Below are positions 8,801-41,118 of a stretch of 64,000 nt of DNA, in pieces (within the stretch, counting starts at the first letter, position 1; every line of letters starts with the position of its first letter). The stretch spans positions 18,166 through 82,165 of the forward strand of contig JAZQXC010000014.1 in assembly GCA_045632645.1 (NCBI GenBank), written 5' to 3'. The DNA comes from Alphaproteobacteria bacterium. GTDB lineage: Bacteria > Pseudomonadota > Alphaproteobacteria > RF32 > CAG-239. Both the position numbers and the translations under genes were made by a program. A model generated the notes under the pieces. It did no database searches, was not told where the DNA came from, and saw only the letters and a program-made list of their open reading frames with translations.

Positions 8801-9288
8801 TTAAAGCAAATATTGCTGGCTGTGTTGAAACGTTCCAAAAAAGAATAAGCAAAAACGGAAATAAATATGCATTTCTAGGCCTATCTGACACAACAGACAA
8901 CTTTGAAGGAATGCTCTTTTCTGATGCTCTTGCAAAATACGAAGATATCATTAATTCAGGATGTCCTTTGCTTGTAAAAGTAACAATTAATAAACAAAGC
9001 GAAGAAGAAAATCCAAGAGTTATGATAAACAGTGTAAAAACAATAGATGAAGCTATTGCCGAACAAGCTAAAGGACTTATAATTTCCGTATCAAACATTT
9101 CTGCTATAAAAGAATTAAAGAAAATATTATATACAGATATGCGTGGAACAAACAAAGTTTATATTGAGCCAGAATTAGACGATTGGGAAGTCAGAATAGA
9201 AATTGAAGGTGGTTTTGCATTCGCCGATAGCATGATGCTATCAAAACTCAAAAGCATCCCCGGAATATCATCAGTAAAAGAGTTTTAA
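5815..9288 (+). CDS. dnaE: DNA polymerase III alpha subunit
   Basis: PHP-domain start LRVHTAYSLAEGA, polymerase core motifs; 1157 aa. Confidence 0.95.
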   Translation: MKDPKFVHLRVHTAYSLAEGAIMLPKLMHKLHDMGVPAIAVTDSANMFGGKAFSKYASDEGIKPIMGCQFLLRNEDSDNLLISKGKELEPDKIVLLVMNKTGYENIMKLMKHFYLDNTAHGWSPQLTIDNLRNYNEGLIALTGGTSGPIGRLLLENRKKEAIDTLINLKDIFNDRLYMEISRIGTQEEQKTEEDFINFAYEYNIPLVATNEVFFLNEEMFEAHDALVCISAGEYVSNENRRRFSINNRLRTEEEMVELFKDLPEALNNTVRIAKLCNYLSKKVDPLLPIFECPNGKTQDEFITEEAFSGLNDRMQKAVYHDGLTQEERLAIDEKYYKRLEYELSVIKKMGFPGYFLIVSDFIKWSKAHGVSVGPGRGSGAGSIVAWALKITELDPIKLDLLFERFLNPERVNMPDFDVDFCQENRYKTIEYVQEKYGFDHVAQIITYGKLQSKAVIRDVARVLQMPYSQADKISKMIPAGVQGKNPTLPEALEQVPELEEMRQNDPQVNKLFEIAIKLEGLYRNSGMHAAGVVIGDRPLEQLVPLYKDPRADMPVTMYDMKFVEETGLIKFDFLGLKTLTVIQRAIDWIKISQGIDLDMETIPLNDEATYKMLQDGKTTAVFQFESAGMKDVHKQIKPDRFEDLIAIVSLYRPGPMDNIPTFIKRKHGEEEIQYLHPALEPILKETYGIMVYQEQVMMIARELGGYTMGGADKLRKVMGKKMRDEIPKQRIMFTEGAIKNGIDEDVAKSIFDQMEKFASYGFNKSHAAAYSLVSYQTAYLKAHYPVEFMCAVMDLDITNTDKLATFKAECKALGIDVLKPDINESLAKFSVQNGKLRYALGAIKGVGEANMNAIIEARNKGGKFKDLSDFINRVDAKQLNRKQLEQLIKAGALDCLEPKRGKLFANIDTILKNISSATELKTSAQSSLFGAEEYSSKVKLFDAPDWPDLEKLRIEAGAIGFYLSAHPLDVYHDSMKRLGVKTCFEVMSNIKVGDSIKANIAGCVETFQKRISKNGNKYAFLGLSDTTDNFEGMLFSDALAKYEDIINSGCPLLVKVTINKQSEEENPRVMINSVKTIDEAIAEQAKGLIISVSNISAIKELKKILYTDMRGTNKVYIEPELDDWEVRIEIEGGFAFADSMMLSKLKSIPGISSVKEF

Positions 9289-9299
9289 AGGAGTATATT

Positions 9300-10097
9300 A
9301 TGGAAAAAGATACCGACAACACAATAAAAATACCGTTTTGGAAAGGCTTTTTATATCCATTTATTGTTATAAAAAACAATTTAAATAATTTCCTAACCTT
9401 AACAGGTGTGTTTGCATTTATAACAGCACTGCTATCTCTTGCTATGGGCAGTAGTTCAGGCTGTAAATTTGGCGATAAATCACAGATATTCTGCTCAAAT
9501 TCAATATACACCGTAATTGCTTTTGGAGTTATTCTTTTACTGGGTATCAGTTTATACTCAAACCGTATATTAATGATTACTCAAAACACAAAAGACCTAA
9601 AAGAAGTAATAAAAAAATATTACCACCCTGAAGATACAAAAACAATCATAACAATAACATTAAATTTCCTAACATGGATATTAATCGTTTATTGTGCGCA
9701 TATACTAAGCACTCGAGTCCCAACACCAAACTTTTATGCAGAATTAATATATTTTTTATTTTTTTCAGGAATTATTGTATTGTGCTTCATATATCTAATT
9801 AATAATGTAATTATGTTACGATACATAACCGGAAAAAAATGGCTTGTACTCAATCAAACATTTTGGCCTATTTTTGATAATCTTGTTAAATTCATGTTAT
9901 GGCCAACATGTTATGCACTATTTTTCGGTTGGCTAGCAAAAGCTCAATTTTCTTATGTTTTATCCTTAACCCCTGATGCTGGCATAATCTTTTTTGCCTT
10001 CAGTGATTTTATGCTATATTTCATAACATATTCAATCTTTGCATTTTGGATTTTACACCTTTGCTATATTGAAAAAGAAATATTCAAAGAGGATTAA
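9300..10097 (+). CDS. Hypothetical polytopic membrane protein
   Basis: AAGGAG RBS, about 6 predicted TM segments, no recognised family. Confidence 0.5.
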   Translation: MEKDTDNTIKIPFWKGFLYPFIVIKNNLNNFLTLTGVFAFITALLSLAMGSSSGCKFGDKSQIFCSNSIYTVIAFGVILLLGISLYSNRILMITQNTKDLKEVIKKYYHPEDTKTIITITLNFLTWILIVYCAHILSTRVPTPNFYAELIYFLFFSGIIVLCFIYLINNVIMLRYITGKKWLVLNQTFWPIFDNLVKFMLWPTCYALFFGWLAKAQFSYVLSLTPDAGIIFFAFSDFMLYFITYSIFAFWILHLCYIEKEIFKED

Positions 10098-29917: not shown

Positions 29918-30703
29918 ATGAGTTTTAAAGATTTAGGGTTAAGCAACAACACAATTCGTGCAATAGAAGACTTAGGCTACAAAGAGCCAACAACTGTCCA
30001 AAAAGATGTTATCCCATCGGTTTTAGCCGGCAAAGACATCTTCATTATCGCACCAGCTGCTTGTGGCAAAACATGCTCATACATTTTTCCATTAATAGAT
30101 ATTATTTCTCAACACGATGGGCAAAATATTTTAATAATCACATCTGATGATAAAGAAGCTGTAAATGTATCAGACAAACTCTCTATTTTTAACAAATACC
30201 ACGAAATGAACAACAAGCGTAAAGACAACCCAGAAACAGATGCAAACGTTATCATCGGCGCCCCAAGTTTATTGTTAGAAAATATCACAGAAGAAAAAAT
30301 AGACATTAATAATATAAATATTTTGGTAGTTGATGACATTAATTTAATCAAAAAGAAACGCCAACTTAAAAACTTAGATAAAATTTTAGAAATACTACCA
30401 TCAAACAAACAAAACATTGTATTTACAACACGTAGATCAAAAGAAACACAAGACACATTAAACAAAATTCTAAAAGCTCCTGCAGAAATCAAAATAGATA
30501 AAAACAAAGAAAGCGAAGTAAAAGACGTTCAAAACGAACCAACACTTCCTAAAGATGAAAATAAAAAAGCTAAAAGAATAAAAGATAAAACACCACTCGA
30601 TAAAAAAGCTATCGAGCTCGCAAAGAAAAATAAAGCCTTTGGCTTTAATCCACCTCATTTCTTATTAACAGAGTGCAAACTCGTTGAAGGGGATGATTTA
30701 TAA
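29918..30703 (+). CDS. Degenerate DEAD-box helicase domain-1-only protein with Lys-rich tail (predicted catalytically inactive)
   Basis: Q-motif TTVQ retained; motif I AxTGxGKT replaced by APAACGKT, DEAD by DDIN, SAT by FTT; no helicase C domain. Confidence 0.6.
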   Translation: MSFKDLGLSNNTIRAIEDLGYKEPTTVQKDVIPSVLAGKDIFIIAPAACGKTCSYIFPLIDIISQHDGQNILIITSDDKEAVNVSDKLSIFNKYHEMNNKRKDNPETDANVIIGAPSLLLENITEEKIDINNINILVVDDINLIKKKRQLKNLDKILEILPSNKQNIVFTTRRSKETQDTLNKILKAPAEIKIDKNKESEVKDVQNEPTLPKDENKKAKRIKDKTPLDKKAIELAKKNKAFGFNPPHFLLTECKLVEGDDL

Positions 30704-30777
30704 AAAAAATACTTGCGCTATTTTATTGATAGCTCTATAAACAAGAAAAATATTAACCTATAAACTTGGAGATACAA

Positions 30778-31533
30778 ATGGCTGGACACTCCCAATTTAA
30801 GAACATTATGTACCGCAAAGGTGCACAAGATGCAAAAAAAGCTAGAGTTTTTGCAAAACTAGCTCGTGAAATTACTGTTGCTGCAAAAACAGGTCTTCCT
30901 GAACCAGATAAAAACCCTCGTTTAAGACTTGCAATCCAAGCAGCACGTGCAGAAAGTATGCCAAAAGATAATATTGAACGCGCTATTGCTAAGGCAACAC
31001 AAGTTGCAGGTGGAGCAGACTTTATCACAATGCGCTACGAAGGTTTTTCAGCAAACAAAGTAGCTGTAATTGTTGAAGCATTAACAGATAACAAAAACAG
31101 AACAGCAAGTAACGTTCGTTCAATTTTCGGCAAACGTGGTGGTGCAATGGGCGAAACAGGCTCTGTTGCATTTAACTTTGAGCGTATCGGATACATTGAA
31201 TATCCTTTAGCTGTTGCAGATGCTGACACAATGTTTGAAGAAGCATTAAACGCAGGTGCAAACGAAGTTATTTCAGAAGATGAGATTCATGCAATAGAAA
31301 CTCTTCCTGATGATTTATCATCTGTAACAGAAGCCTTAGAACAAAAATTCGGAACACCATCTGCTTCTCGTCTAGACTGGAAACCAACTGTTAAAACAGA
31401 CATTACAGACTTAGAAACAGCTAAAAAGTTCCTAGAATTTATTGATGCATTAGAAGAAGATGAAGATGTTCAACATGTTTATCACAATGCAGAAATATCC
31501 GAAGATGTTATGTCACAGCTAGAGGCTGAATAA
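30778..31533 (+). CDS. yebC: YebC/PmpR-family transcriptional regulator
   Basis: MAGHSQFKNIMYRKG start, GGAG RBS; 251 aa. Confidence 0.9.
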   Translation: MAGHSQFKNIMYRKGAQDAKKARVFAKLAREITVAAKTGLPEPDKNPRLRLAIQAARAESMPKDNIERAIAKATQVAGGADFITMRYEGFSANKVAVIVEALTDNKNRTASNVRSIFGKRGGAMGETGSVAFNFERIGYIEYPLAVADADTMFEEALNAGANEVISEDEIHAIETLPDDLSSVTEALEQKFGTPSASRLDWKPTVKTDITDLETAKKFLEFIDALEEDEDVQHVYHNAEISEDVMSQLEAE

Positions 31534-31535
31534 TA

Positions 31536-32024
31536 ATGCGCATATTAGGCCTAGACCCAAGCATATCATCAACCGGTTGGGGCGTAATAGATGTCGAGGG
31601 GAGCCGTTTGTCTTATAAGGCAGACGGCTTTATTCCAACATCAAACAAATTACCATTATCAGAGCGCTTGCATATTATACATAACGAACTAAAAAAAATA
31701 ATAGAAATATACAAACCAGACGAAGCCTCTATCGAGGTCACATTCTTAAACTCAAATCCCGAAACATCATTAAAGCTAAGTATGGCAAGAGGCGTTGTTT
31801 TTCTAATGCCAGCTCTTTACAATATTCCACTTTATGAATACGAGCCAAACAAAGTAAAAAAAGCTCTAACCGGCGTAGGCAGAGCAGACAAAACCCAAGT
31901 AGAAACAATGGTAAAAATATTGCTTCCTGGAGCAAAACCTCAAAACAATGACTCATCAGACGCTCTAGCTATAGCTATAACTCATGCAAATTTAAGAAAT
32001 TCTTTTAGCTTACAAAAAGTTTAA
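31536..32024 (+). CDS. ruvC: Crossover junction endodeoxyribonuclease RuvC
   Basis: ILGLDPSISSTGWGV start; 162 aa. Confidence 0.9.
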   Translation: MRILGLDPSISSTGWGVIDVEGSRLSYKADGFIPTSNKLPLSERLHIIHNELKKIIEIYKPDEASIEVTFLNSNPETSLKLSMARGVVFLMPALYNIPLYEYEPNKVKKALTGVGRADKTQVETMVKILLPGAKPQNNDSSDALAIAITHANLRNSFSLQKV

Positions 32025-32026
32025 AT

Positions 32027-32056
32027 AAAAGGGGAGACCAAAGTCTCCCTTTTTTA
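32027..32056 (+). terminator. Rho-independent terminator after ruvC
   Basis: AAGGGGAGACcaaaGTCTCCCTT + T6. Confidence 0.85.
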
Positions 32057-32071
32057 TATTTTAACAAAGAT

Positions 32072-32902
32072 CTATCCTCTTTCACCTTGTAGTACAAAAG
32101 GATATATTTTCATATCACTAGTACGAACTTCTTTTGGTTTGTTATGGTATGCATCTAAACTTTGTTTCATTGTTGAATCTTTTTCAGCATCTACAACTTC
32201 GGCAAATCTATCAACCAAACCGTTACAAAATTTAGTAAGCTCAGGATGATTATCTACAATCCTAGAGCAAACATTAACAACCCCCGCATTTGCAGAGCTC
32301 AACTGTATTCCTTTTGATTTTGCAACATTAACAACCTTTTCCATGTGAGAAATAAATTTCTCAGAAAGTCCTCTGTCTTCTATACATAATGTTTCTGCAA
32401 GACCTTCCTTAAATAAATTATCTACACCTTCATCCCTCAAACCGCTTACTGTTAATCTGCCAGCTAGTTCTTCAAAAACGGTTTTTCTATAACTATAGCA
32501 ATAAACACTAGCATCCTTTTCGCAATTTCTATCCCTCTTCATTGCATTATAAAACTCAAGAGCTTTATTATTTAAAGCAAACCCATCCTCTGGTTTTACC
32601 ATTTCAACAACACCCTCAACAACATCTTTGCAGGTCCAAGCAAGCCCAGGATATTGTTTTACTATTTCAGTACATATATCTATCAATTGTGTGTTATTTT
32701 CACTGATTTTGCCTTTATAGTACTTCACGTTTACAAGCTTTTGCCTTATATGCTCAGCAACTCTTTTAGCATCGTCTCCACTCAACAAACCAACATCAGC
32801 TACTTCAAACCCTGTATCATCTTGTGATTTTTGATTTTTATCAAACCCAAAAAATATATTACGCTCTGTTAAACGCTCTATAAAATTATCTGCAAGCTTC
32901 AT
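32072..32902 (-). CDS. Hypothetical repeat protein A (two copies of C-x2-IV-x2-(Y/H)P(G/E)L-x3-C motif), paralog of 32996..33742
   Basis: AAGGAGAGG RBS before ATG of MKLADNF; motifs ICTEIVKQYPGLAWTCKDVV and VCSRIVDNHPELTKFCNGLV. Confidence 0.55.
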   Translation of the reverse strand: MKLADNFIERLTERNIFFGFDKNQKSQDDTGFEVADVGLLSGDDAKRVAEHIRQKLVNVKYYKGKISENNTQLIDICTEIVKQYPGLAWTCKDVVEGVVEMVKPEDGFALNNKALEFYNAMKRDRNCEKDASVYCYSYRKTVFEELAGRLTVSGLRDEGVDNLFKEGLAETLCIEDRGLSEKFISHMEKVVNVAKSKGIQLSSANAGVVNVCSRIVDNHPELTKFCNGLVDRFAEVVDAEKDSTMKQSLDAYHNKPKEVRTSDMKIYPFVLQGERG

Positions 32903-32967
32903 GATCCTCTCCTTTTTTATATAACATAGATAAATAATACCACAAATACACTCCCATGTCAACATAC

Positions 32968-32998
32968 ATAAGAAAGAGGGCTCACGCCCTCTTTCTTA
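32968..32998 (-). terminator. Perfect 12-bp hairpin terminator after repeat protein B
   Basis: AAGAAAGAGGGCtcacGCCCTCTTTCTT. Confidence 0.75.
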
Positions 32999-33742
32999 CA
33001 TTCCCATTCCTATTCCATATCCCATTTCATATTGATAACCATCATCCATTTTATCGCACTTTTCTTTCATTTTTTTTGCTTCTTCCTTAGCCACAAGATT
33101 ATTACTTCTCCTTATTACTATATTACAATATTCTTGAGCTGTTCCAATTATATTATCATCATCAGAATTTAAATCAACAACCTTGCCCACTAATTGATTA
33201 CATTTTTCAGCCAACTCAGGGTGTCTAGATACAATTTTTTTACAATTTTCCACTATTGCATTTCCATAATAACCATTCTGACCTATTCCTTCATATAACT
33301 TATCTGTATATGCAACATATCGCTCTGCAACATCTTTATCTTCCAAACCAACCACACCATATGCATACGCCTTATCTCTTTCAGAAGAAAGCATGCCACA
33401 TAATTTTTTACGACTTATAAGCATCTTTTTTGCTTCAGATACATTAAAACCACCACTATTACCAATCTCAGCATATACAGCTAACATACTTCTTGCAAAG
33501 AAATTTTCCTCTTCTTCTGTTCCTCCAGCATTCATTTCTCCATATCTTACTAGCTTCTCTGCTACATTATAAATATCTTTAGGATTACAACTTTTATCCT
33601 TACTTACATTATATAAATCACAAGCCACTCCCCAAAGTTCACCATAAGAAAATTCTTCTCCTTTAATTTCTTTTGCATGAAAAAGTGTTACTTTTCTCTC
33701 TACATCTTCTAAACTAGTCATAGATCTATCTCCAAAACTCAA
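32996..33742 (-). CDS. Hypothetical repeat protein B (paralog of A; motif ENCKKIVSRHPELAEKCNQLV)
   Basis: Shares HPEL / Cys-pair motif with neighbour; 248 aa; ends in G/M/Y-rich tail. Confidence 0.55.
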   Translation of the reverse strand: MSFGDRSMTSLEDVERKVTLFHAKEIKGEEFSYGELWGVACDLYNVSKDKSCNPKDIYNVAEKLVRYGEMNAGGTEEEENFFARSMLAVYAEIGNSGGFNVSEAKKMLISRKKLCGMLSSERDKAYAYGVVGLEDKDVAERYVAYTDKLYEGIGQNGYYGNAIVENCKKIVSRHPELAEKCNQLVGKVVDLNSDDDNIIGTAQEYCNIVIRRSNNLVAKEEAKKMKEKCDKMDDGYQYEMGYGIGMGM

Positions 33743-33784
33743 AATTCATAGATTATAATACACTTTCCGCCCAACATTGTCAAA

Positions 33785-33813
33785 TATAAAAAAAGAGGGC
33801 TCATCGCCCCCTT
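33785..33813 (-). terminator. Rho-independent terminator after cyclophilin gene
   Basis: Minus-strand AGGGGGCgaugaGCCCUCU + U7; core resembles terminator at 32968. Confidence 0.8.
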
Positions 33814-33817
33814 ATTT

Positions 33818-34489
33818 TTACATATCAGCAACAACTTCCATGCTAACTATAATATCTGGATCATGAACCATACCATTATAGCCACCGCCTTTTTTGATAT
33901 TATCAACATATTCCATACCGCTTACAACCCTACCCCAAACAGTATATTGTCCATCTAAGTGTGGAGCATCATCAAAACAAATAAAGAATTGGCTATCAGC
34001 AGAATCAGGATGCATAGCTCTTGCCATAGAAACTGTACCACGAGTATGAGGAACTCTATTAAATTCTGCTTTTAATTTTTTACCACTTCCACCAGTACCT
34101 GTTCCTAAAGGACAACCTGTCTGCGCCATAAAACCATCAATAACTCTATGGAACTTCAAACCATTATAAAAACCTTCTCTAACTAATTCCTTGATTCTAG
34201 CCACATGATTTGGCGCAACATCTGGCAACATTTCAATCACAACTTCACCATCTTTTAATTTTAAAACCAATGCATTTTCTTGGTCTTTCACATCATAAGA
34301 ATGTTTCATTTTCTTTCCCCTTGTTTCACTTATTTCTAATTTTTTAGTTTCTTCTGCTGTAATACTTTTTGTATCACTTTTTTCCAAAACTTTTGTTTCA
34401 CTCTTAGCTAAAACATTTCCCATCATAAAACCCTTTGCAACAAAAATTAAAACTAAAGCTAAAATTATATTTAGGAATTTATTTCTCAT
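33818..34489 (-). CDS. ppiB: Periplasmic cyclophilin-type peptidyl-prolyl cis-trans isomerase
   Basis: Signal peptide; cyclophilin motifs FHRVIDGFMAQTG...GTVSMA...SQFFI. Confidence 0.85.
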   Translation of the reverse strand: MRNKFLNIILALVLIFVAKGFMMGNVLAKSETKVLEKSDTKSITAEETKKLEISETRGKKMKHSYDVKDQENALVLKLKDGEVVIEMLPDVAPNHVARIKELVREGFYNGLKFHRVIDGFMAQTGCPLGTGTGGSGKKLKAEFNRVPHTRGTVSMARAMHPDSADSQFFICFDDAPHLDGQYTVWGRVVSGMEYVDNIKKGGGYNGMVHDPDIIVSMEVVADM

Positions 34490-35423
34490 TATTCAACACC
34501 CAATCAATACGTTCATTTGCTGTTAAACCTTGAGGATAAGAATCTATTTCTTTCAACCTATCCCTTAAACCCACTCCGTTAGCAATTTGTATTGCAAGCC
34601 CTGGTCTTGCATTTATTTCCAACATCATAGGACCTCTTTCCTTATCAAGCACAATATCCGCGCCCAAATAACCAAGACCGGTCATATCATACGCCATTGC
34701 CCCAATAAGAAGATGTTCTCTCCAAAAAGGAACCTTTAAATCCATAAGATTTGCCCCAGTATCAGGATGATGTGTAACCTGTTTATTATGCATAACCGCA
34801 TTAAGCGTTTTACCTGTTTTTACATCTAATCCAACACCAACCGCACCTTGATGAAGATTTGCTCTACCACCAGACTCTTTTGTAGCCAACCTCATCATAA
34901 CCATCGCCGGATATCCTTTATAAACAATCACTCTAACATCAGGCACACCGCGATAACTAAAATCCTTAAATACCTTACTAAAATTAACCGTCTCTTCAAT
35001 CAAAGCAACATCATATTTACCGCCAAGACTAAACAAACCACTCAAGGTATTTGATATATGTTGATAAACATCTTCAAAACTTAACACATCACCAGATGCA
35101 TTTATAAACTCATTTCCATTATACTCTTTTATAACCAAAACACCCTTACCACCACTGCCATGCGCCGGTTTAATAACAAATGTTTTATGCCCTTTTATAA
35201 TATCTAATAGGTTTTTCACCTGATATTGATGCTCAATAATACCAATCATTTTTGGTGTATTAATATTTACACTATTAGCCAAGCGTTTTGTTTTTACTTT
35301 ATCATCAACAAGGGTATATAAAGAGCGCTTATTTTGTTTTGCAATCACATCATAATTGCGCCGGTTCATACCTAGAACACCATTTTTGCTTAACTCTTTT
35401 GCTATTTTAAACCATTTAAACAT
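34479..35423 (-). CDS. ATP-grasp enzyme, RimK-related alpha-L-glutamate ligase-like family
   Basis: GAGGA RBS before MFKWF; N-terminal GVLGMNRRN, ATP-grasp KPAHGSGGKGVLVI; start overlaps upstream gene by 8 nt. Confidence 0.7.
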   Translation of the reverse strand: MFKWFKIAKELSKNGVLGMNRRNYDVIAKQNKRSLYTLVDDKVKTKRLANSVNINTPKMIGIIEHQYQVKNLLDIIKGHKTFVIKPAHGSGGKGVLVIKEYNGNEFINASGDVLSFEDVYQHISNTLSGLFSLGGKYDVALIEETVNFSKVFKDFSYRGVPDVRVIVYKGYPAMVMMRLATKESGGRANLHQGAVGVGLDVKTGKTLNAVMHNKQVTHHPDTGANLMDLKVPFWREHLLIGAMAYDMTGLGYLGADIVLDKERGPMMLEINARPGLAIQIANGVGLRDRLKEIDSYPQGLTANERIDWVLNNEK

Positions 35424-36972
35424 TTGTATTTTCCTCATTTTTAACAAGAGGAGCAAAACGCATAAGTTCTGTTAATCTATATCCAGTATATGTACCCAAA
35501 AGCATAACAACAAACATTATAACGATATTAAATTCATTAAATGCAAACATAACATGGCGCACATATTCATTACTAACCACCACATAAGTAATAAGAGCCG
35601 TCAATACAGTATTAAATATCTCTTTAATAGTATTTTTAGCTCCTTCTTCTTCCCATGTAATTGATGCGCGCTCAATAATCCACGCTGTAATAATTATAGG
35701 AAAGAAAATAGCCGAGCTAATAATGTGATAATCAGCTCTATACCCAATAACTGTAAGCACTTGTATTAGTAAAATAACAAAAATCACCACAAACGAAATT
35801 CTAGGAACTAAAAGCAAATTAAGTCTAGCAACAACAGCTCTCATCAAAAGCCCTAAAAATATCATTATAGAAAAACAAACCACACCTGAAACAAGCCCTG
35901 TTTTAACAAGCGACATAGCAAGCAACATTGGTGTAAATGTTCCCATCGTAGAAACACCAATAACATTTCTCATCAAAACAACCATCAAAATAGCTAAAGG
36001 GAAAATCATTAACCACTTTAATGTATTTTGCTCTAATATAGGCAAAGAATATACGCTATATTCATAAGGAATAAGTAGTTTATGATCTCTAGCCTTATGC
36101 TCAGCCATTTTTTCAGGAGTTGTTACAGATTTTAACACAGAGAACATAACTTTAGAATCTTCGCCACCACGAACATCTAACAAAGAAACACCACCACGCT
36201 GGAAAACAACCAAGTTTTTGGCAAGACCAATATTGGCAGTATTCAAATCATATATTTTCCACTCATCATCTAAAAACGCCTCAAGCATAATATCTGGCTT
36301 TTCGGTTTTCTTACCTTCTTCAAGTTTAATAACTCTAACAATTCTAGCAGGAATTCTTTTATACGATAAAACATTGATAATCTTCTCTGCAAATTCTTTA
36401 GGGGTATAATTTAAAGGAATAATCAAGCTCATAGAAGGATTAATTACCTCCTTATTTAAAGCATTAATAATCTTTTGAACCTTATTTCCTTCATACAAAT
36501 GAGCCAACTCCCAAAGTTTACTCATTTGCCCTTTCTCTTCTTCGTTAAGTATTGGTCTTTCAATTTCTATAGGCTTCATTTCATCGCCTTTAACTTCATC
36601 AACATCATCATAAATGCTAAAGCGATAATAAAGATTTTGTTTTCCCTTCTTGTTTTTACCCTTAAAAACTATTCTGTTATTTATTTTATCGTGCTCAACA
36701 GCATAGTTTTTAGCAACAAATTCTTCGCTTAAGATTTTAAAGCTATAATTTGTTGTGGGAACACTAAGTCCAACCTCAACATCTCCACCCAACGCTCTAA
36801 AAGACACTTTCGCATCAATAGTCCAAACATCTGTAACTGCTTTGGGAGAAAACGTAAAACCCCAATATTTTATCTTATAATAACAGCAAGCAGAAGCATA
36901 CCACAAAGATAAAACAAGCAATAAAAACAATACTTTTCTAACACTAAAAAATTCAAAACCACTTTTTATCAT
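35416..36972 (-). CDS. Inactive-transglutaminase-like soluble domain fused to 7 TM helices
   Basis: 518 aa: N-terminal signal/anchor, about 300 aa soluble domain, then 7 hydrophobic helices. Confidence 0.65.
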   Translation of the reverse strand: MIKSGFEFFSVRKVLFLLLVLSLWYASACCYYKIKYWGFTFSPKAVTDVWTIDAKVSFRALGGDVEVGLSVPTTNYSFKILSEEFVAKNYAVEHDKINNRIVFKGKNKKGKQNLYYRFSIYDDVDEVKGDEMKPIEIERPILNEEEKGQMSKLWELAHLYEGNKVQKIINALNKEVINPSMSLIIPLNYTPKEFAEKIINVLSYKRIPARIVRVIKLEEGKKTEKPDIMLEAFLDDEWKIYDLNTANIGLAKNLVVFQRGGVSLLDVRGGEDSKVMFSVLKSVTTPEKMAEHKARDHKLLIPYEYSVYSLPILEQNTLKWLMIFPLAILMVVLMRNVIGVSTMGTFTPMLLAMSLVKTGLVSGVVCFSIMIFLGLLMRAVVARLNLLLVPRISFVVIFVILLIQVLTVIGYRADYHIISSAIFFPIIITAWIIERASITWEEEGAKNTIKEIFNTVLTALITYVVVSNEYVRHVMFAFNEFNIVIMFVVMLLGTYTGYRLTELMRFAPLVKNEENTNV

Positions 36973-36981
36973 ATTAAGTCC

Positions 36982-37527
36982 CTAATTTAAGGTATAAGAA
37001 GTTGATGTATCAACAATATATCTACCTGTTAAAATATTACGCCCAATCAACCCTTGATAATCAAATTGTCTTCTATCTGCAATAGAAAATACCGCACTAA
37101 AAACTTCTTTACCAAGTTTTACATCCATCTTAACAGCTCTTCTTCTTTCATCTTCACCCATTCTTTTAACCTTAAAAGAACGCTCAACTTTTTTTTCAAA
37201 AACATGCTCTTCGCCTGTTTTACGATTTTTTAATTTAAAAGAAACCCACTTTTCACCATCGCGTTCAAAATATTCAACATCATCACAATCAATAGATGAT
37301 GTTGTAGCACCCGTATCAATTCTAGCTAAAAACGGAGTTTTCATGGGCAAAAAATAAATAGGCTCAACCTCTCCAATAATAGGAAGATGAGCCTTTTCAA
37401 TAACAACCTCTTTCTTTGTTGTGTTAACATTATGCACAACAGCAGGAACAATTACTTGCTTTGTATGACAAGCAGAAACCAAAACCACAACCACTAATAC
37501 AACCACTAATATAAAAAACTTATGCAT
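36982..37527 (-). CDS. Lipoprotein retropepsin-like (clan AA, DTGA) aspartic protease ('putative ATP-dependent zinc protease' family)
   Basis: Lipobox VSAC; ARIDTGATTSSID aspartic protease signature. Confidence 0.7.
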   Translation of the reverse strand: MHKFFILVVVLVVVVLVSACHTKQVIVPAVVHNVNTTKKEVVIEKAHLPIIGEVEPIYFLPMKTPFLARIDTGATTSSIDCDDVEYFERDGEKWVSFKLKNRKTGEEHVFEKKVERSFKVKRMGEDERRRAVKMDVKLGKEVFSAVFSIADRRQFDYQGLIGRNILTGRYIVDTSTSYTLN

Positions 37528-37679
37528 TTACTTTTAAAACCTTTTAATATTTCACAGATATTTCTGCATAAATATATCTCTAAAATATATAACAAACATC
37601 AAGAAAATAACACTAATGCACAATGTTTTTACATAATGATAGAATGTATATTGTATAACGATGTATTTAAACGTTGTAT

Positions 37680-38825
37680 TTAAAACATTACCGTCGCTCT
37701 CAAACTTGTAGCAAAACCATAATTAGATTTTTGATTTAGCGCAGGATTGATATAGAGTTGAACATCAGGAGTTACAACAACCATATCTCCAATACCAAAA
37801 GACCAAAAAGCTTCAACTACCTGTTCTGCCTTATGATTTACTTTTTCACCAACAGCTTTTTCATCAATTTTATTATAAGCATACGCCAAACCAATCTGAT
37901 CTAAAGGGTTCCTGTCAAACGGATTGTTATAAACACCCCCCAGCACCCAAGATTGCCTGATTTCCTCAACATCACCACTAGTTTCATTTACTCTTGCAAA
38001 AACACTAAGTTTTTCACCAATATTTTGTGATAAATTCAAAGACCAACCATTTGTTGTTTGGGGTTGTTCTTTAACCCAAGGTTGATTATACACTAACAAA
38101 GAAACCTCCGCATCTCCCAAACCTTTAATTGTTGGCGTATAAGCCACATACCCAAATGTTGTATAATGCTCATCACTCAGATCATTAAATCTAATACTAG
38201 GCGCATCAACATTTGTTCCATCTTGCCCACCAAAAGCTATTGTCCAATTATCATTAGGATTTATCTGAGCATACACACCAACCCCTGCTTGCGTATATGA
38301 TGCAGATGCATTTTGTGATAACGACTCATTTAAGAAATTAATTTGTTGGTTAGCATCATAATCTGTTCCATCAAAATTATAAATAGGAAATTGCCCCACC
38401 CCAAAAGTTAGCCAATTATATTTCCCACCAAATTGATATGTATAATAAAGCTCATTAAACTCATTTTCTCCACTTGCATAATCATTTATCGGTGTAACAA
38501 AACCAGAGTTATTTGCTAAATCATTAGCATTATGATTACCATATCTAATAACCGTATACGCAAAATTTAGCGTACCAACCCCATTTTTGTTATTAAACAT
38601 TTCCCATGTAAATGATGGATATAAATATCCCTGAACAGCGTTATGTTTTCCACTTGGCGCACTTCTTTGCTCCAAAATAGAAACATCAACACTATAATCA
38701 AAGCCATATTTTTTATTTAATCTATTTTTAAAATCTTGATAATTATCAAAAACACCTTGAGCTTTAGCCAAATTACCACTCAAAGATGCTATTAAGAAAA
38801 ACAAAAAAACAATATTTTTTTTCAT
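37680..38825 (-). CDS. Outer-membrane beta-barrel porin (OprB-like carbohydrate porin suggested)
   Basis: Signal peptide MKKNIVFLFFLIASLSGNLAKA/Q, 381 aa, C-terminal ...LRATVMF. Confidence 0.55.
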   Translation of the reverse strand: MKKNIVFLFFLIASLSGNLAKAQGVFDNYQDFKNRLNKKYGFDYSVDVSILEQRSAPSGKHNAVQGYLYPSFTWEMFNNKNGVGTLNFAYTVIRYGNHNANDLANNSGFVTPINDYASGENEFNELYYTYQFGGKYNWLTFGVGQFPIYNFDGTDYDANQQINFLNESLSQNASASYTQAGVGVYAQINPNDNWTIAFGGQDGTNVDAPSIRFNDLSDEHYTTFGYVAYTPTIKGLGDAEVSLLVYNQPWVKEQPQTTNGWSLNLSQNIGEKLSVFARVNETSGDVEEIRQSWVLGGVYNNPFDRNPLDQIGLAYAYNKIDEKAVGEKVNHKAEQVVEAFWSFGIGDMVVVTPDVQLYINPALNQKSNYGFATSLRATVMF

Positions 38826-38960
38826 ATCTACACCTTTAGAATATTAAACCTTACCAAAACATAATATCTAAAATCACGAAAAAAAGGGGGTATACAAAAA
38901 AAGCTCTTGAATAGTAAAGTTAATTTTTATAAAATCCAAATATCAACAAAGGATTTATAG

Positions 38961-39617
38961 ATGATAGCGAAATTAAAAGGCATTATAGATAACATCGGCG
39001 AAGACTGTTGCATCATAGATGTAAACGGCGTCGGATACCTCGTTAATATGTCTTCAAAAACTCTCTCAAAACTCTCTCAAGGAGAATATACAACACTTCT
39101 TATAGAAACAGTTATAAAAGAAGACAGCATAACACTCTTTGGCTTTCAATCCCCTTGGGAAAAAGAGTGGTTTAACACGCTTACAAAAATTCAAGGCGTT
39201 GGTGGAAAGGTTTGCTTAGCAATTTTAAGTGCCTTGAGTCCAGCAGAATTATCGCAAGCCATTTCTGCTCAAGATAAAACACCATTCCAAAGAGCATCTG
39301 GTGTTGGACCAAAGCTTGCAACAAGATTGGTTACCGAATTAAAAGATAAAATAGTAACAATTCCTGTTGAATATCTATCATCAACTAATTTAAACACTGT
39401 ATTTAAAGGCGAAAAAGAACAAACAGAACAACCAATAGCTTTAGAGCCACAAACAGATGAAACATACTCCAAAACAGAAGATTTAACATCTGCTCTAACA
39501 AACTTAGGATATCAAAAAATTGATGCTTATCGAGTAGCTTCATCTATTTGTCTACAAAATAAAGATGCAGATATAGGAACTCTAATTCGTTTAGCACTAA
39601 AAGAATTTAACAAATAG
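38961..39617 (+). CDS. ruvA: Holliday junction DNA helicase RuvA
   Basis: MIAKLKGII start, HhH motifs; 218 aa. Confidence 0.9.
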
Positions 39618-39625
39618 GAGAAAAA

Positions 39626-40681
39626 ATGCAAAACAATCAAGAAAGACTCTTAAGCGCACAAAAACTTTCAATAGATGAAGCAAATTCTCCTATTGCAATA
39701 AATCTAAGACCTTCAAGCTTAGATGAATTTGTCGGACAAGACAAGGTATGTCAAAACCTAAAAGTGTTTATCCAATCAGCAAAACAAAGGGGTGAGGTTT
39801 TAGACCATGTTCTATTATATGGCCCCCCAGGACTTGGTAAAACAACCTTATCGAATATAATATCAAAAGAGCTTGGTGTTGGTTTTAAGGCAACATCTGC
39901 TCCAATGATTACCAAATCAGGCGACCTTGCTGCAATTTTAACAAATCTAGAAGCAAAAGACGTCTTATTTATTGATGAAATACATCGCCTAAATCCTGCA
40001 ATAGAAGAGGTTTTGTATTCCGCAATGGAAGATTTTCAACTAGATATAATCATTGGTGAAGGTCCATCAGCACGCTCAGTAAAAATCGATCTACAACCAT
40101 TCACGCTGGTTGGCGCAACCACCCGTTCTGGCTTAGTATCCACCCCTCTTCGTGAAAGATTTGGTATTCCATTAAGAATGGATTTTTATAATCATGAAGA
40201 CCTAAAAAAGATTGTAAAACGTGGCGCTAAATTATTAAATATGCCCATTTCTGATGACGGAGCAATGGAGGTTGCAAAACGCTCAAGAGGAACCCCTCGA
40301 ATTGCTGGAAGACTATTAAAAAGAGTAAGAGATTTTGGTGCTGTTGCTGGCAATATTGAAATAGATTCAAACATAGCCGACAAAGCTTTAAGCCTCTTAG
40401 ATGTTGACCCATATGGTTTGGATGAATTTGATAGAAGATATCTAAATTGTATAGCAAAAAACTATGGTGGCGGTCCTGTTGGCGCAGACACTCTTGCAGC
40501 GGCCCTATCCGAAGAAAGAGACACCATAGAAGAAGTAATAGAACCATATTTACTAAAACTTGGCTTTTTACAAAGAACACCAAGAGGAAGAGTTCTCTCC
40601 GAACAAGGTTGTAAATATTTAGGAGTAAAAACCTCCAAAACAAGCAATCAAATTAGTTTTATAGATGATTTAGGATTTTAA
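39626..40681 (+). CDS. ruvB: Holliday junction DNA helicase RuvB
   Basis: [13 protein letters not shown] Walker A, AAA+; 351 aa. Confidence 0.95.
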
Positions 40682-40683
40682 AC

Positions 40684-41118
40684 ATGACATACGAAACACC
40701 AACCATTAAAGGGCAATTATTCGAAGATAAAACATTCTCATTTCCTGTTCGTGTATATTATGAAGATACCGATGCTGGTGGCATAGTATATTACGCAAAT
40801 TACCTAAAATTTGCAGAAAGAGCCAGAACAGAATTTTTACGTCATATCGGAAAAAATCAAGATGAAATGTTAAAACAACAGGGGCTAGGTTTTGTGGTAA
40901 GAGAGTGCCATATAAACTATAAAACTCCAGCCAAATTAGATGATGCTTTAAATGTTACATGTAGGGTCACAGAATTAAGAGGTGCCTCACTAAAAATGGA
41001 ACAAAAAATATACAGACAAGACACTGTTCTTTGCGAGGTAGAAATAGGTTTAGTTTTCTTAAATATTGCAACAATGCGCCCAACAAAAATACCGCCAGAA
41101 ATAGCTCAAACATTTTAA
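40684..41118 (+). CDS. ybgC: Acyl-CoA thioesterase YbgC (4HBT family)
   Basis: VYYEDTDAGGIVYYANYLKF hotdog motif; 144 aa. Confidence 0.85.
   Translation: MTYETPTIKGQLFEDKTFSFPVRVYYEDTDAGGIVYYANYLKFAERARTEFLRHIGKNQDEMLKQQGLGFVVRECHINYKTPAKLDDALNVTCRVTELRGASLKMEQKIYRQDTVLCEVEIGLVFLNIATMRPTKIPPEIAQTF

What the first reader, a model, noticed from the sequence alone, without database searches (positions are those of the whole stretch)
32060..38950. About 6.9 kb opposite-strand gene block splits ruvC from ruvAB
yebC-ruvC (30778-32024, +) and ruvA-ruvB-ybgC (38961-41118, +) are normally contiguous or nearly so in alphaproteobacteria. Here they are separated by seven minus-strand genes, so this interval is where accessory content was inserted. 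The genes are:
- two paralogous repeat proteins (32072..32902, 32996..33742)
- a periplasmic cyclophilin (33818..34489)
- an ATP-grasp ligase (34479..35423)
- a 7TM protein with an inactive-transglutaminase-like domain (35416..36972)
- a lipoprotein DTGA protease (36982..37527)
- an OprB-like porin (37680..38825)

The block is delimited by the ruvC terminator at 32027-32056 and the divergent porin/ruvA intergenic region.
Basis: partly seen in the sequence, partly recalled or inferred. Interest (0 to 1): 0.75.

Follow-up and report, generated by a model that had tools for sequence, protein, structure and literature searches.

The report
Rlo envelope operon plus swapped cassette
The genes between ruvC and ruvA are mostly an old, lineage-wide version of the recently described Rlo envelope stress operon, with an attached cyclophilin and porin, in a gut or rumen alphaproteobacterium; only two small orphan genes at one end are truly accessory and were recently swapped between species.

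Summary

The "inserted accessory block" reading is only partly right. The interval has three layers:
[quoted passage not shown] This system was characterised in Pseudomonas aeruginosa in 2025. Here rloC overlaps a cyclophilin gene.
- **Porin:** an AaxA-like porin gene lies upstream.
- **Cassette:** a 1.75 kb two-gene orphan cassette (P1, P2) lies next to ruvC.

The five-gene module has native composition. It sits at the same site in relatives down to 76% RuvB identity. In other gut lineages it occurs intact with unrelated flanks. Fifty-seven environmental rloABC loci never carry the cyclophilin or the porin.

P1-P2 is absent from a 99%-identical contig. It is 98.5-99.2% identical in a lineage whose flanking genes are only 82-90% identical, so it was exchanged recently.

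The organism belongs to an uncultured gut/rumen alphaproteobacterial lineage, not Rickettsiales. This is a new variant of a known system and of modest interest.

The parts
37680..38825 (-). Outer-membrane porin, AaxA-like / OprB family. It has a signal peptide and a C-terminal Phe.
   Evidence: PF04966 E 7.5e-16. NCBIfam 'porin AaxA' NF051888 E 6.4e-84, 282 bits, below the 600-bit cut-off. In relatives L099, L104 and L110 it lies divergent from a pyruvoyl arginine decarboxylase and an APC permease. Present in 10 of 12 gut-clade metagenome loci with enough upstream sequence and in 0 of 28 environmental loci.
36982..37527 (-). rloA: lipoprotein retropepsin-like aspartic peptidase. Lipobox VSAC with Cys20; catalytic D71 in DTGA.
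   Evidence: PF05618 E 3.7e-28. Best NCBIfam match is RloA3, 99 bits, cut-off 210. Matches PDB 9g58 and 9g59 with DTGA aligned. The basic residues that contact polyglutamate in P. aeruginosa RloA map to R69, R116, K119, K121, R128/R129 and R152.
35416..36972 (-). rloB: inner-membrane protein with an N-terminal TM helix, a periplasmic inactive transglutaminase-like domain and a 7TM domain.
34479..35423 (-). rloC: cytoplasmic ATP-grasp alpha-L-glutamate-ligase-like enzyme. Its start overlaps the rloB stop by 8 nt.
   Evidence: TIGR02291 424 bits, above the 314-bit cut-off. PF14397 E 9e-88. The P-loop-like IKPAHGSGGKG and the E-x-N Mg site (EINARPG) are invariant in the alignment with Aeromonas and Legionella homologues.
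33818..34489 (-). Cyclophilin with a ~40-residue K/E/T-rich 'KxETKxL' repeat tail. The long ORF overlaps the rloC stop by 11 nt. An alternative start at 34426 (Met22) matches the start used in all other relatives.
   Evidence: PF00160 E 2.6e-43. The tail is conserved across genomes of 32-51% GC. Directly follows rloC in 19 of 20 gut-clade metagenome loci and in 0 of 50 environmental loci.
33793..33813 (-). Terminator hairpin that ends the rloA-rloB-rloC-cyclophilin unit. In cassette-free relatives it is shared with ruvC.
   Evidence: -15.3 kcal/mol, z -3.75. The same hairpin lies 28 bp from ruvC in L081.
32034..33788 (.). P1-P2 accessory cassette: the indel relative to the conspecific contig L081. 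The near-identical exchange tract shared with L169 runs from about 32000 to 33850.
   Evidence: blastn breakpoints, junction sequences, per-segment identities and sliding identity.
32996..33742 (-). P2: orphan protein of 248 aa. Own promoter-like site at 33783-33755 and own terminator hairpin at 32965-33000.
   Evidence: No Pfam, NCBIfam, PADLOC or PHROGs family. Only 4 homologue clusters in 5.8 billion proteins. Promoter-like site. Hairpin -23.5 kcal/mol, z -9.2.
32072..32902 (-). P1: orphan protein of 276 aa, a paralogue of P2 with the shared motif duplicated. Own promoter-like site at 32962-32934.
   Evidence: Only 2 homologue clusters. Paralogy with P2. Promoter-like site. The AF2 model is all-helical but low confidence, pLDDT 58.
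32027..32056 (.). Bidirectional terminator hairpin between ruvC and P1. It lies inside the exchanged tract.
   Evidence: -16.5 and -14.1 kcal/mol on the two strands. It differs from the hairpin that follows ruvC in L081.

Best explanation
The interval holds three units of different age.

**1. An Rlo envelope system.** The genes rloA, rloB, rloC and a cyclophilin are tightly packed or overlapping and end at one terminator.
- By homology with the P. aeruginosa system, RloC is a cytoplasmic ATP-grasp ligase that makes a glutamate-rich product or modification.
- RloB is an inner-membrane protein that exposes a catalytically dead transglutaminase-like domain to the periplasm. It is needed for that product to act.
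- RloA is a periplasmic retropepsin, here lipid-anchored, that trims polyglutamate so the product does not become toxic.
- The net effect is on cell-envelope integrity and osmotic tolerance.
- In this gut/rumen alphaproteobacterial clade the operon has acquired a cyclophilin with a conserved Lys/Glu/Thr-rich repeat tail. I infer that it is co-expressed and probably works with the system.

**2. An AaxA-type porin gene upstream.** It travels with the operon in most of the clade. In some relatives it is also next to arginine decarboxylase and antiporter genes, so it is more likely a solute channel than an Rlo part.

**3. A 1.75 kb cassette of two fast-evolving orphan paralogues (P1, P2).** Each has its own promoter-like site and terminator. 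The cassette sits in a variable slot between the cyclophilin and ruvC. It entered or was replaced by homologous recombination, with crossovers in the 3' ends of ruvC and the cyclophilin gene.

**Shown here:** gene content, family membership, conservation pattern, composition and the recombination tract.
**Inferred:** the biochemical roles (from Pseudomonas), co-transcription, and any role for the cyclophilin and the porin.
For: **Family assignments**
- Domain and family matches.
- Active-site and polyglutamate-contact residues are conserved in RloA.
- The periplasmic domain of RloB has no Cys and has a transglutaminase-like fold.
- ATP-grasp motifs are conserved in RloC.
- Gammaproteobacterial loci (Legionella, Aeromonas) have the same rloA-rloB-rloC order, with RloC 48-53% and RloB 32% identical.

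**Genetics and biochemistry of the Pseudomonas system** (PMC12239564)
- RloA cleaves stretches of at least 8 Glu.
- Deleting rloB or rloC suppresses the hypoosmotic lethality of the triple rloA mutant.

**Age of the module**
- Same place and order in L081, L082, L001 and L089, and on the ruvA side in L002, L020 and L006-L008.
- Identities track those of the flanking genes.
- Native GC, GC3 and codon usage.

**The module behaves as a unit**
- It is intact with unrelated flanks in L095, L099, L102, L109 and L110.
- The cyclophilin follows rloC in 19 of 20 gut-clade loci and 0 of 50 environmental loci. The porin is present in 10 of 12 and 0 of 28.
- The repeat tail is conserved across 32-51% GC.

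**The cassette**
- Absent from L081, which is 99.25% identical over 11.8 kb.
- Also absent from L082 and L001.
- Against L169, P1 is 99.2% and P2 98.5% identical, while ruvC is 83%, yebC 88.5% and the cyclophilin 3' end 90%.
- The identity step lies at about 32000 and about 33850.
- Slot contents vary between 0, 1, 2 and 3 genes.
Against: - No experiment exists for this lineage. The Rlo substrate is unknown even in Pseudomonas.
- The window's RloB and RloA score below the cut-offs of the narrow NCBIfam RloB and RloA models (259 vs 900 bits; 99 vs 210 bits).
- The linkage of the cyclophilin and the porin rests on conserved synteny alone. One gut-clade locus (L093) lacks both, and L009 keeps the porin without the rlo genes.
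- Many metagenome loci are near-duplicates, so independent lineages number about a dozen, not 20.
- The RuvA+RuvB tree does not resolve whether the module was gained once. Backbone bootstrap support is 8-29%.
- No clear promoter was found for the rloA operon.
Confidence: 0.75

Rival explanations
1. The whole 6.9 kb is one accessory island that was inserted between ruvC and ruvA and is present only in a subset of genomes.
For: The ancestral-type order yebC-ruvC-ruvA-ruvB-ybgC exists in L019, and with one small ORF between ruvC and ruvA in L004 and L005. Sister groups L003-L005 and L010 lack the block next to ruvA. At some time in the past the module must therefore have arrived here or been lost there.
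Against: The five-gene module is fixed at this site from 99% down to 76% RuvB identity, and its divergence matches that of its flanks. Composition is not deviant. There are no mobility genes, tRNA or flanking repeats. The seven genes do not share one history: P1-P2 alone is polymorphic and recently exchanged.
Confidence: 0.1
2. The cyclophilin and the porin are ordinary housekeeping neighbours. They stay next to rloABC only through inherited gene order and have no functional tie to it. The functional unit is the canonical three-gene rlo operon.
For: All 57 environmental loci and the Legionella and Aeromonas loci work with three genes only. L009 keeps the porin without rlo, and L093 keeps rlo without the porin or the cyclophilin. 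In L006, L007, L099, L102 and L110 the porin is separated from rloA by an opposite-strand gene. The porin has an alternative partner, aaxB/aaxC, in L099, L104 and L110. A related cyclophilin (71% identity) without rlo lies near ruvB in L015.
Against: Flanks on both sides of the module differ among at least five lineages, yet rloC-cyclophilin adjacency survives in 19 of 20 loci. The rlo-linked cyclophilins share a special repeat tail that replaces the classical signal peptide seen in L015. In the window and in L001 the cyclophilin ORF overlaps or abuts the rloC stop.
Confidence: 0.35
3. P1-P2 is ancestral at this slot, and the cassette-free strains (L081, L082, L001) are independent deletions. 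There was no recent gain in the window's strain.
For: Members of the family occupy the same slot in at least three lineages: a P1 homologue at 60% identity in L083-L085 and L089, and a P2 homologue at 69% identity in L170. This argues for long residence of the family at this site.
Against: The window's cassette is 98.5-99.2% identical to that of L169 and L086, while the flanks are 82-90% identical. Vertical descent cannot produce this pattern. The ruvC 3' end and its terminator differ between the window and its conspecific L081 and co-vary with the cassette. Both processes probably operate: an old slot with recent allele or cassette exchange.
Confidence: 0.2

Closest known systems
RloABC (retropepsin-like osmotic stress tolerance) operon of Pseudomonas aeruginosa (Lormand et al., mBio 2025, PMC12239564)
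   Same: [quoted passage not shown] The genes are tightly packed or overlapping.
   Different: The host is an alphaproteobacterial gut/rumen lineage; the paper describes the operon as mainly gammaproteobacterial. Only one RloA copy lies in the 64 kb window, and it is a lipoprotein. RloB is only about 32% identical to gammaproteobacterial RloB. A cyclophilin with a repeat tail is fused onto the operon's 3' end, and an AaxA-like porin lies upstream. Neither was seen in 57 environmental loci or in the 2 gammaproteobacterial loci.
RimK-RimB (RimABK) ribosomal protein S6 polyglutamylation system
   Same: It pairs an ATP-grasp glutamate ligase with a retropepsin-like peptidase that trims polyglutamate. 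RloA cleaves RimB substrates in vitro (PMC12239564; PMC11957791).
   Different: RimB is cytoplasmic and there is no membrane partner. The window proteins score far below the RimK and RimB cut-offs: TIGR00768 42 vs 143 bits, RimB 56 vs 200 bits.
Chlamydial aaxABC arginine:agmatine exchange system (PMC2720952)
   Same: The porin matches the NCBIfam AaxA model over nearly its full length (E 6e-84). In relatives L099, L104 and L110 it lies next to a pyruvoyl arginine decarboxylase and an APC-family permease.
   Different: The score is below the equivalog cut-off (282 vs 600 bits). The 64 kb window has no aaxB or aaxC. In the relatives those genes are divergent from the porin, not in one operon with it.
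The three-gene association of ATP-grasp ligase, inactive transglutaminase-7TM protein and peptidase predicted by Iyer, Abhiman, Burroughs and Aravind 2009 (Mol Biosyst 5:1636)
   Same: From my own memory only: that paper predicted the same three-gene neighbourhood. Here I could only confirm the citation, through PMC12096838.
   Different: The paper could not be read here. To my knowledge it reports no cyclophilin or porin partner.

Membership tests
Rlo system (RloA/RloB/RloC) | RloA: retropepsin-like peptidase (PF05618) with the catalytic Asp in D-T-G-A | tested here: met
   PF05618 E 3.7e-28. D71-T-G-A aligns with D48 of PDB 9g58.
Rlo system (RloA/RloB/RloC) | RloA carries an N-terminal export signal, unlike cytoplasmic RimB | tested here: met
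   By reading the sequence: MHKFFILVVVLVVVVLVSAC has a hydrophobic core followed by a V-S-A-C lipobox. A Cys in the same place occurs in all clade homologues. No signal-peptide predictor was available.
Rlo system (RloA/RloB/RloC) | Basic residues that coordinate polyglutamate (RloA-Pa K46, R92, R114, R137) | tested here: met
   They map to R69, R116, R128/R129 and R152 through the HMMER alignment to 9g58. The exact column for R114 is uncertain by one residue.
Rlo system (RloA/RloB/RloC) | [quoted passage not shown] | tested here: met
   [not shown]
Rlo system (RloA/RloB/RloC) | Scores above the NCBIfam RloB (NF052267) and RloA1-3 cut-offs | tested here: not met
   259 vs 900 bits for RloB and 99 vs 210 bits for RloA. 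These are narrow 'exception' or 'equivalog' models. The window proteins are distant orthologue candidates, not close ones.
Rlo system (RloA/RloB/RloC) | RloC: ATP-grasp, alpha-L-glutamate ligase-like (TIGR02291) | tested here: met
   424 bits, above the 314-bit cut-off. 46-50% identical to the Legionella and Aeromonas RloC with ATP-grasp motifs invariant.
Rlo system (RloA/RloB/RloC) | Co-directional rloA-rloB-rloC operon | tested here: met
   A 9 bp gap and an 8 nt overlap. The same order occurs in 2 gammaproteobacterial and 57 environmental loci.
Rlo system (RloA/RloB/RloC) | Phenotype: hypoosmotic tolerance, with loss of rloB or rloC suppressing loss of rloA | not testable with these tools
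   Needs genetics. The organism is uncultured.
AaxA porin / aaxABC system | Sequence membership in the AaxA equivalog | tested here: inconclusive
   E 6.4e-84 over model positions 86-435 of 440, but 282 bits is below the 600-bit cut-off. No solved relative.
AaxA porin / aaxABC system | Adjacent arginine decarboxylase (aaxB) and antiporter (aaxC) | tested here: not met
   No hit in the 64 kb window. Both are present, divergent from the porin, in relatives L099, L104 and L110.
Genomic island / mobile element | Mobility genes, tRNA target or flanking direct repeats | tested here: not met
   No integrase or transposase domains in the seven proteins. The only tRNA is at 762-848. No convincing flanking repeats. 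No relatives of P1 or P2 in viral contigs.
Genomic island / mobile element | Deviant base composition or codon usage | tested here: not met
   Block GC 0.333, GC3 0.213, RSCU correlation 0.82. Rest of the window 0.339, 0.230, 0.76.
Genomic island / mobile element | Presence/absence polymorphism among close relatives | tested here: met
   Met only for P1-P2 (32034-33788): absent from L081, L082 and L001 and present in L086 and L169. Not met for the five-gene module.
RimK/RimB system | RimK and RimB equivalog scores | tested here: not met
   TIGR00768 42 vs 143 bits; NF007764 21 vs 331 bits; RimB NF052261 56 vs 200 bits.

The most novel reading that the evidence does not exclude
The rlo-linked cyclophilin is a dedicated fourth component of the Rlo pathway in gut Alphaproteobacteria. 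Its conserved N-terminal tail, three to four 'L-x-K-x-E-T-K-x' repeats rich in Lys, Thr and Glu, would be either the element that docks it to RloB or RloC, or the genome-encoded acceptor that the ATP-grasp ligase RloC modifies by glutamylation or side-chain cross-linking and that RloA then trims. If so, this clade would offer the first concrete candidate for the missing physiological substrate or partner of Rlo systems.
Probability: 0.15. Interest if true: 0.7.

Novelty: new variant of a known kind. Interest (0 to 1): 0.38.

Why it matters
- **Rlo biology.** The Rlo system was described only in 2025 in P. aeruginosa. It affects osmotic tolerance, beta-lactam sensitivity, biofilm formation and cell shape, but its substrate and mechanism are unknown. 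This clade carries a conserved five-gene version, and its cyclophilin bears a peculiar conserved tail. That gives a specific, testable partner. It also shows that the system is kept in an uncultured gut/rumen alphaproteobacterial lineage.
- **Recombination in an uncultured commensal.** The P1-P2 cassette is a clean small example of a tract exchanged between lineages whose flanks are only 82-90% identical. It introduces orphan genes at a fixed slot without any mobile-element machinery.
- **The original claim.** A 6.9 kb accessory insertion splitting the ruv genes turns out to be mostly ordinary, old gene order.

Tried and rejected
- **AF2 model of P1** from a three-sequence alignment: pLDDT 58, all-helical, too poor for a fold search.
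- **P1 and P2 family searches:** nothing in PADLOC or PHROGs. No relatives in viral contigs. The sub-threshold Pfam hit of P1 to OSR1_C (21 vs 22.4 bits) is treated as chance.
- **RloB against plasmids:** only two hits, a Legionella plasmid and a mislabelled Aeromonas chromosome. They served as gammaproteobacterial comparators, not as evidence of mobility.
- **Neighbour-joining tree of RuvA+RuvB:** the four groups are well supported (91-100%) but the backbone is not (8-29%). Single gain versus gain plus loss could not be decided.
- **Iyer et al. 2009:** not held in the library.
- **Integron-cassette or attC reading of the hairpins beside P1 and P2:** rejected. They are short perfect GC-rich stems followed by T runs, which is the form of a terminator, and each gene has its own promoter-like site.
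- **yebC 5.5 kb from rloA in Aeromonas:** judged coincidental, because none of the 57 environmental loci has ruv or yebC nearby.
- **Promoter for the rloA operon or the porin:** the scan found no more sites than in shuffled sequence.

Full report
**Observation**

Seven minus-strand ORFs lie between 32072 and 38825. On the plus strand they are bracketed by yebC (30766-31533) and ruvC (31536-32024) on one side and by ruvA, ruvB and ybgC (38961-41118) on the other.

Profile searches confirm each guessed function:
- Cyclophilin: PF00160.
- ATP-grasp ligase: TIGR02291, 424 bits against a cut-off of 314.
- Retropepsin-like peptidase: PF05618.
- OprB-family porin, which matches the NCBIfam AaxA model much better (E 6e-84, but below the cut-off).

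The two 'repeat proteins' (P1 at 32072-32902 and P2 at 32996-33742) are weak paralogues. They share the motif C..IV...P.L...C...V, which occurs twice in P1 and once in P2. The hairpin at 32027-32056 is real.

**What the core is**

NCBIfam names the peptidase and the membrane protein as RloA- and RloB-like. The only paper on this system is Lormand et al., mBio 2025 (PMC12239564). It reports the following for P. aeruginosa:
- RloA cleaves runs of at least 8 glutamates.
- A triple rloA mutant dies in hypoosmotic medium, and deleting rloB or rloC rescues it.

The window proteins keep the defining features:
- RloA has D71-T-G-A aligned to the catalytic D48 of PDB 9g58. The basic polyglutamate contacts K46, R92, K95, K97, K109, R114 and R137 are matched by R69, R116, K119, K121, R128/R129 and R152. 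It also has a lipoprotein signal ending in VSAC.
- RloC keeps the ATP-grasp motifs in an alignment with the Aeromonas and Legionella homologues.

Those two gammaproteobacterial loci show the plain three-gene operon.

**Which organism**

A RuvB scan of one genome per species returned uncultured gut, rumen and faecal Alphaproteobacteria MAGs as nearest relatives (89-91% identity). The closest cultured hit is Fodinicurvata at 65%, and a Rickettsiales MAG is also at 65%.

**Is the block an insertion?**

I located the window's proteins in the related loci by tblastn:
- L001 (RuvB 91%) has rarA, a DEAD-domain gene, yebC and ruvC, then cyclophilin-rloC-rloB-rloA-porin, then ruvA-ruvB-ybgC-lptG-cysK. 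This is the same block at the same site but without P1 and P2.
- L002 and L020 (89-90%) and L006-L008 (76-77%) have the five genes next to ruvAB, with other genes beyond the cyclophilin.
- L009 keeps only the porin.
- L003-L005 and L010 lack the block. L004 and L005 have ruvC, one orphan ORF, then ruvA.
- Fodinicurvata (L019) has yebC-ruvC-ruvA-ruvB-ybgC contiguous.

The canonical order therefore exists, and the module does interrupt it, but the interruption is old. Several lines agree:
- Protein identities of the module between the window and each relative fall in the same range as those of the flanking genes. For example, against L006 the module proteins are cyclophilin 77, RloC 71, RloB 55, RloA 50 and porin 58%, and the flanks are RuvA 59, RuvB 76 and YbgC 58%.
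- GC, GC3 and codon usage of the block match the other 50 ORFs of the window.
- There are no mobility genes, no nearby tRNA and no flanking repeats.

A neighbour-joining tree of RuvA+RuvB gives four well-supported groups, two with the module and two without. Its backbone is unresolved, so I cannot say whether there was one gain followed by losses.

**The module as a unit**

A metagenome scan with an RloC alignment gave 80 loci. They split into two sets:
- In the 23 gut-clade loci (RloC at least 64% identical), the cyclophilin directly follows rloC in 19 of 20 with room to see it. The porin is present in 10 of 12 with enough upstream sequence.
- In the 57 environmental loci (RloC 50-58%, RloB 25-41%), rloA-rloB-rloC is always there, but the cyclophilin (0 of 50) and the porin (0 of 28) never are.

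In L095, L099, L102, L109 and L110 the five-gene module is intact but its flanks are unrelated to the ruv genes and differ from locus to locus. Synteny of the module is therefore not just a by-product of a frozen neighbourhood.

The rlo-linked cyclophilins share a ~40-residue N-terminal tail of 'L-x-K-x-E-T-K-x' repeats ending in a K-rich stretch. The tail is conserved in genomes from 32 to 51% GC. A related cyclophilin that is not rlo-linked (L015, 71% identity) has a classical signal peptide instead.

Only the window's sublineage (window, L081, L082, L089) adds a 22-residue hydrophobic segment in front of the tail, and its hydrophobic character is conserved. 'Periplasmic' may therefore be true here, but it is not the rule for the clade.

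The porin has a second association. In L099, L104 and L110 a pyruvoyl arginine decarboxylase and an APC permease lie divergent from it, as in the chlamydial aaxABC system (PMC2720952). The window has neither gene.

**The truly accessory part**

The window's RloB sequence is found exactly on contig L081. That contig matches window 45589-33789 at 99.25% identity. It then jumps to 32033-30840, skipping 32034-33788, which is P1 plus P2. L082 and L001 also have the cyclophilin next to ruvC.

P1 has two homologue clusters and P2 four among 5.8 billion proteins, and all of them sit in this same slot. The slot is filled in four ways:
- Empty: L081, L082, L001.
- One P2-like gene: L170.
- P2 plus P1: window, L086, L169.
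- Two other orphan ORFs plus a 60%-identical P1: L085, L089.

Each gene has its own promoter-like site (TTGACA-17-TATTAT, 11 of 12 matches) and a strong terminator hairpin.

The decisive comparison is with L169 and L086. Their flanking genes are 82-90% identical to the window at the nucleotide level, but P1 is 99.2% and P2 98.5% identical. The identity step lies at about 32000, inside the ruvC 3' end, and at about 33850, inside the cyclophilin 3' end. This is the signature of a recent homologous-recombination tract of about 1.85 kb exchanged between diverged lineages. It also explains why the ruvC C-terminus and its terminator differ between the window and its conspecific L081.

The function of P1 and P2 is unknown. 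They have no signal peptide, no family match and no usable structure model.

**How it most likely works**

*Shown:* the anatomy and the family memberships above.

*Inferred from the Pseudomonas work:*
- RloC uses ATP to build a glutamate-rich product or modification in the cytoplasm.
- RloB is required for that product's effect at the envelope and presents a non-catalytic transglutaminase-like domain in the periplasm.
- RloA, anchored by its lipid, trims polyglutamate in the periplasm and so prevents toxicity. The outcome affects envelope integrity and osmotic tolerance.

*Inferred from synteny only:* in this clade the tailed cyclophilin is co-expressed with the system, and possibly works with it. 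The porin is more likely a solute channel that merely travels with the operon.

**Verdict**

The block is an alphaproteobacterial five-gene variant of a known system plus a small, recently exchanged orphan cassette. Interest is modest. The most useful lead is the clade-specific tailed cyclophilin as a candidate partner or substrate of a system whose substrate is unknown.

Noticed in passing
L110:3722-4762 (-); also L099:3683-4696, L102:3774-4712, L098:3728-4696, L106:359-1330, L006:6137-7177, L007:6949-8001: In many relatives, but not in the window, a 310-350 aa ORF lies divergent from rloA, between the porin and rloA. The copies are homologous to one another (25-49% identity). They have a basic N-terminus followed by a hydrophobic segment. 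Four members give weak sub-threshold hits to Pfam NlpC/P60, DUF1287 and Amidase_6 (E 0.05-0.07); my recollection is that these belong to one papain-like clan. If so, this may be a cell-wall hydrolase-like partner of the module.
   Followed up: partly
L110:191-2372, L099:3-2182, L104:3-2182: An APC-family permease and a pyruvoyl-dependent arginine decarboxylase (PF01862) lie divergent from the AaxA-like porin. This amounts to an aaxABC-like set in gut Alphaproteobacteria. The 64 kb window has no copy of either gene.
   Followed up: partly
window 34424-34489; L082:12484-12550; L089:4971-5036: Only this sublineage has a 22-codon hydrophobic extension in front of the cyclophilin's repeat tail. It overlaps the rloC stop. 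Amino-acid changes between the lineages keep it hydrophobic, which suggests a recently gained export or anchor signal.
   Followed up: partly
window 29918-30703 (+): The 'DEAD-box' ORF is only 261 aa, and 259-280 aa in relatives. Precomputed Pfam annotation lists PF00270 alone, with no Helicase_C domain. It may be a truncated or split helicase conserved in this lineage.
   Followed up: no
L110:8645-9565 (+): A Cas1 gene (PF01867, E 7.5e-29) lies immediately after the rlo-linked cyclophilin in one human-gut relative.
   Followed up: no
L004:5462-6052 (+); L005:8014-8583 (+): In the module-free relatives, the ruvC-ruvA gap holds a different orphan ORF of about 190 aa (48% identical between the two loci, no Pfam family). 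The ruvC 3' side therefore seems to be a general landing place for lineage-specific genes.
   Followed up: partly
L088:127-870 (-) and 6473-9412 (+): In Aeromonas caviae, yebC lies 5.5 kb from rloABC. This is probably chance, because none of the 57 environmental rlo loci has yebC or ruv genes nearby. The record is a 4.9 Mb 'plasmid', most likely a mislabelled chromosome.
   Followed up: partly
[not shown]
   Followed up: no
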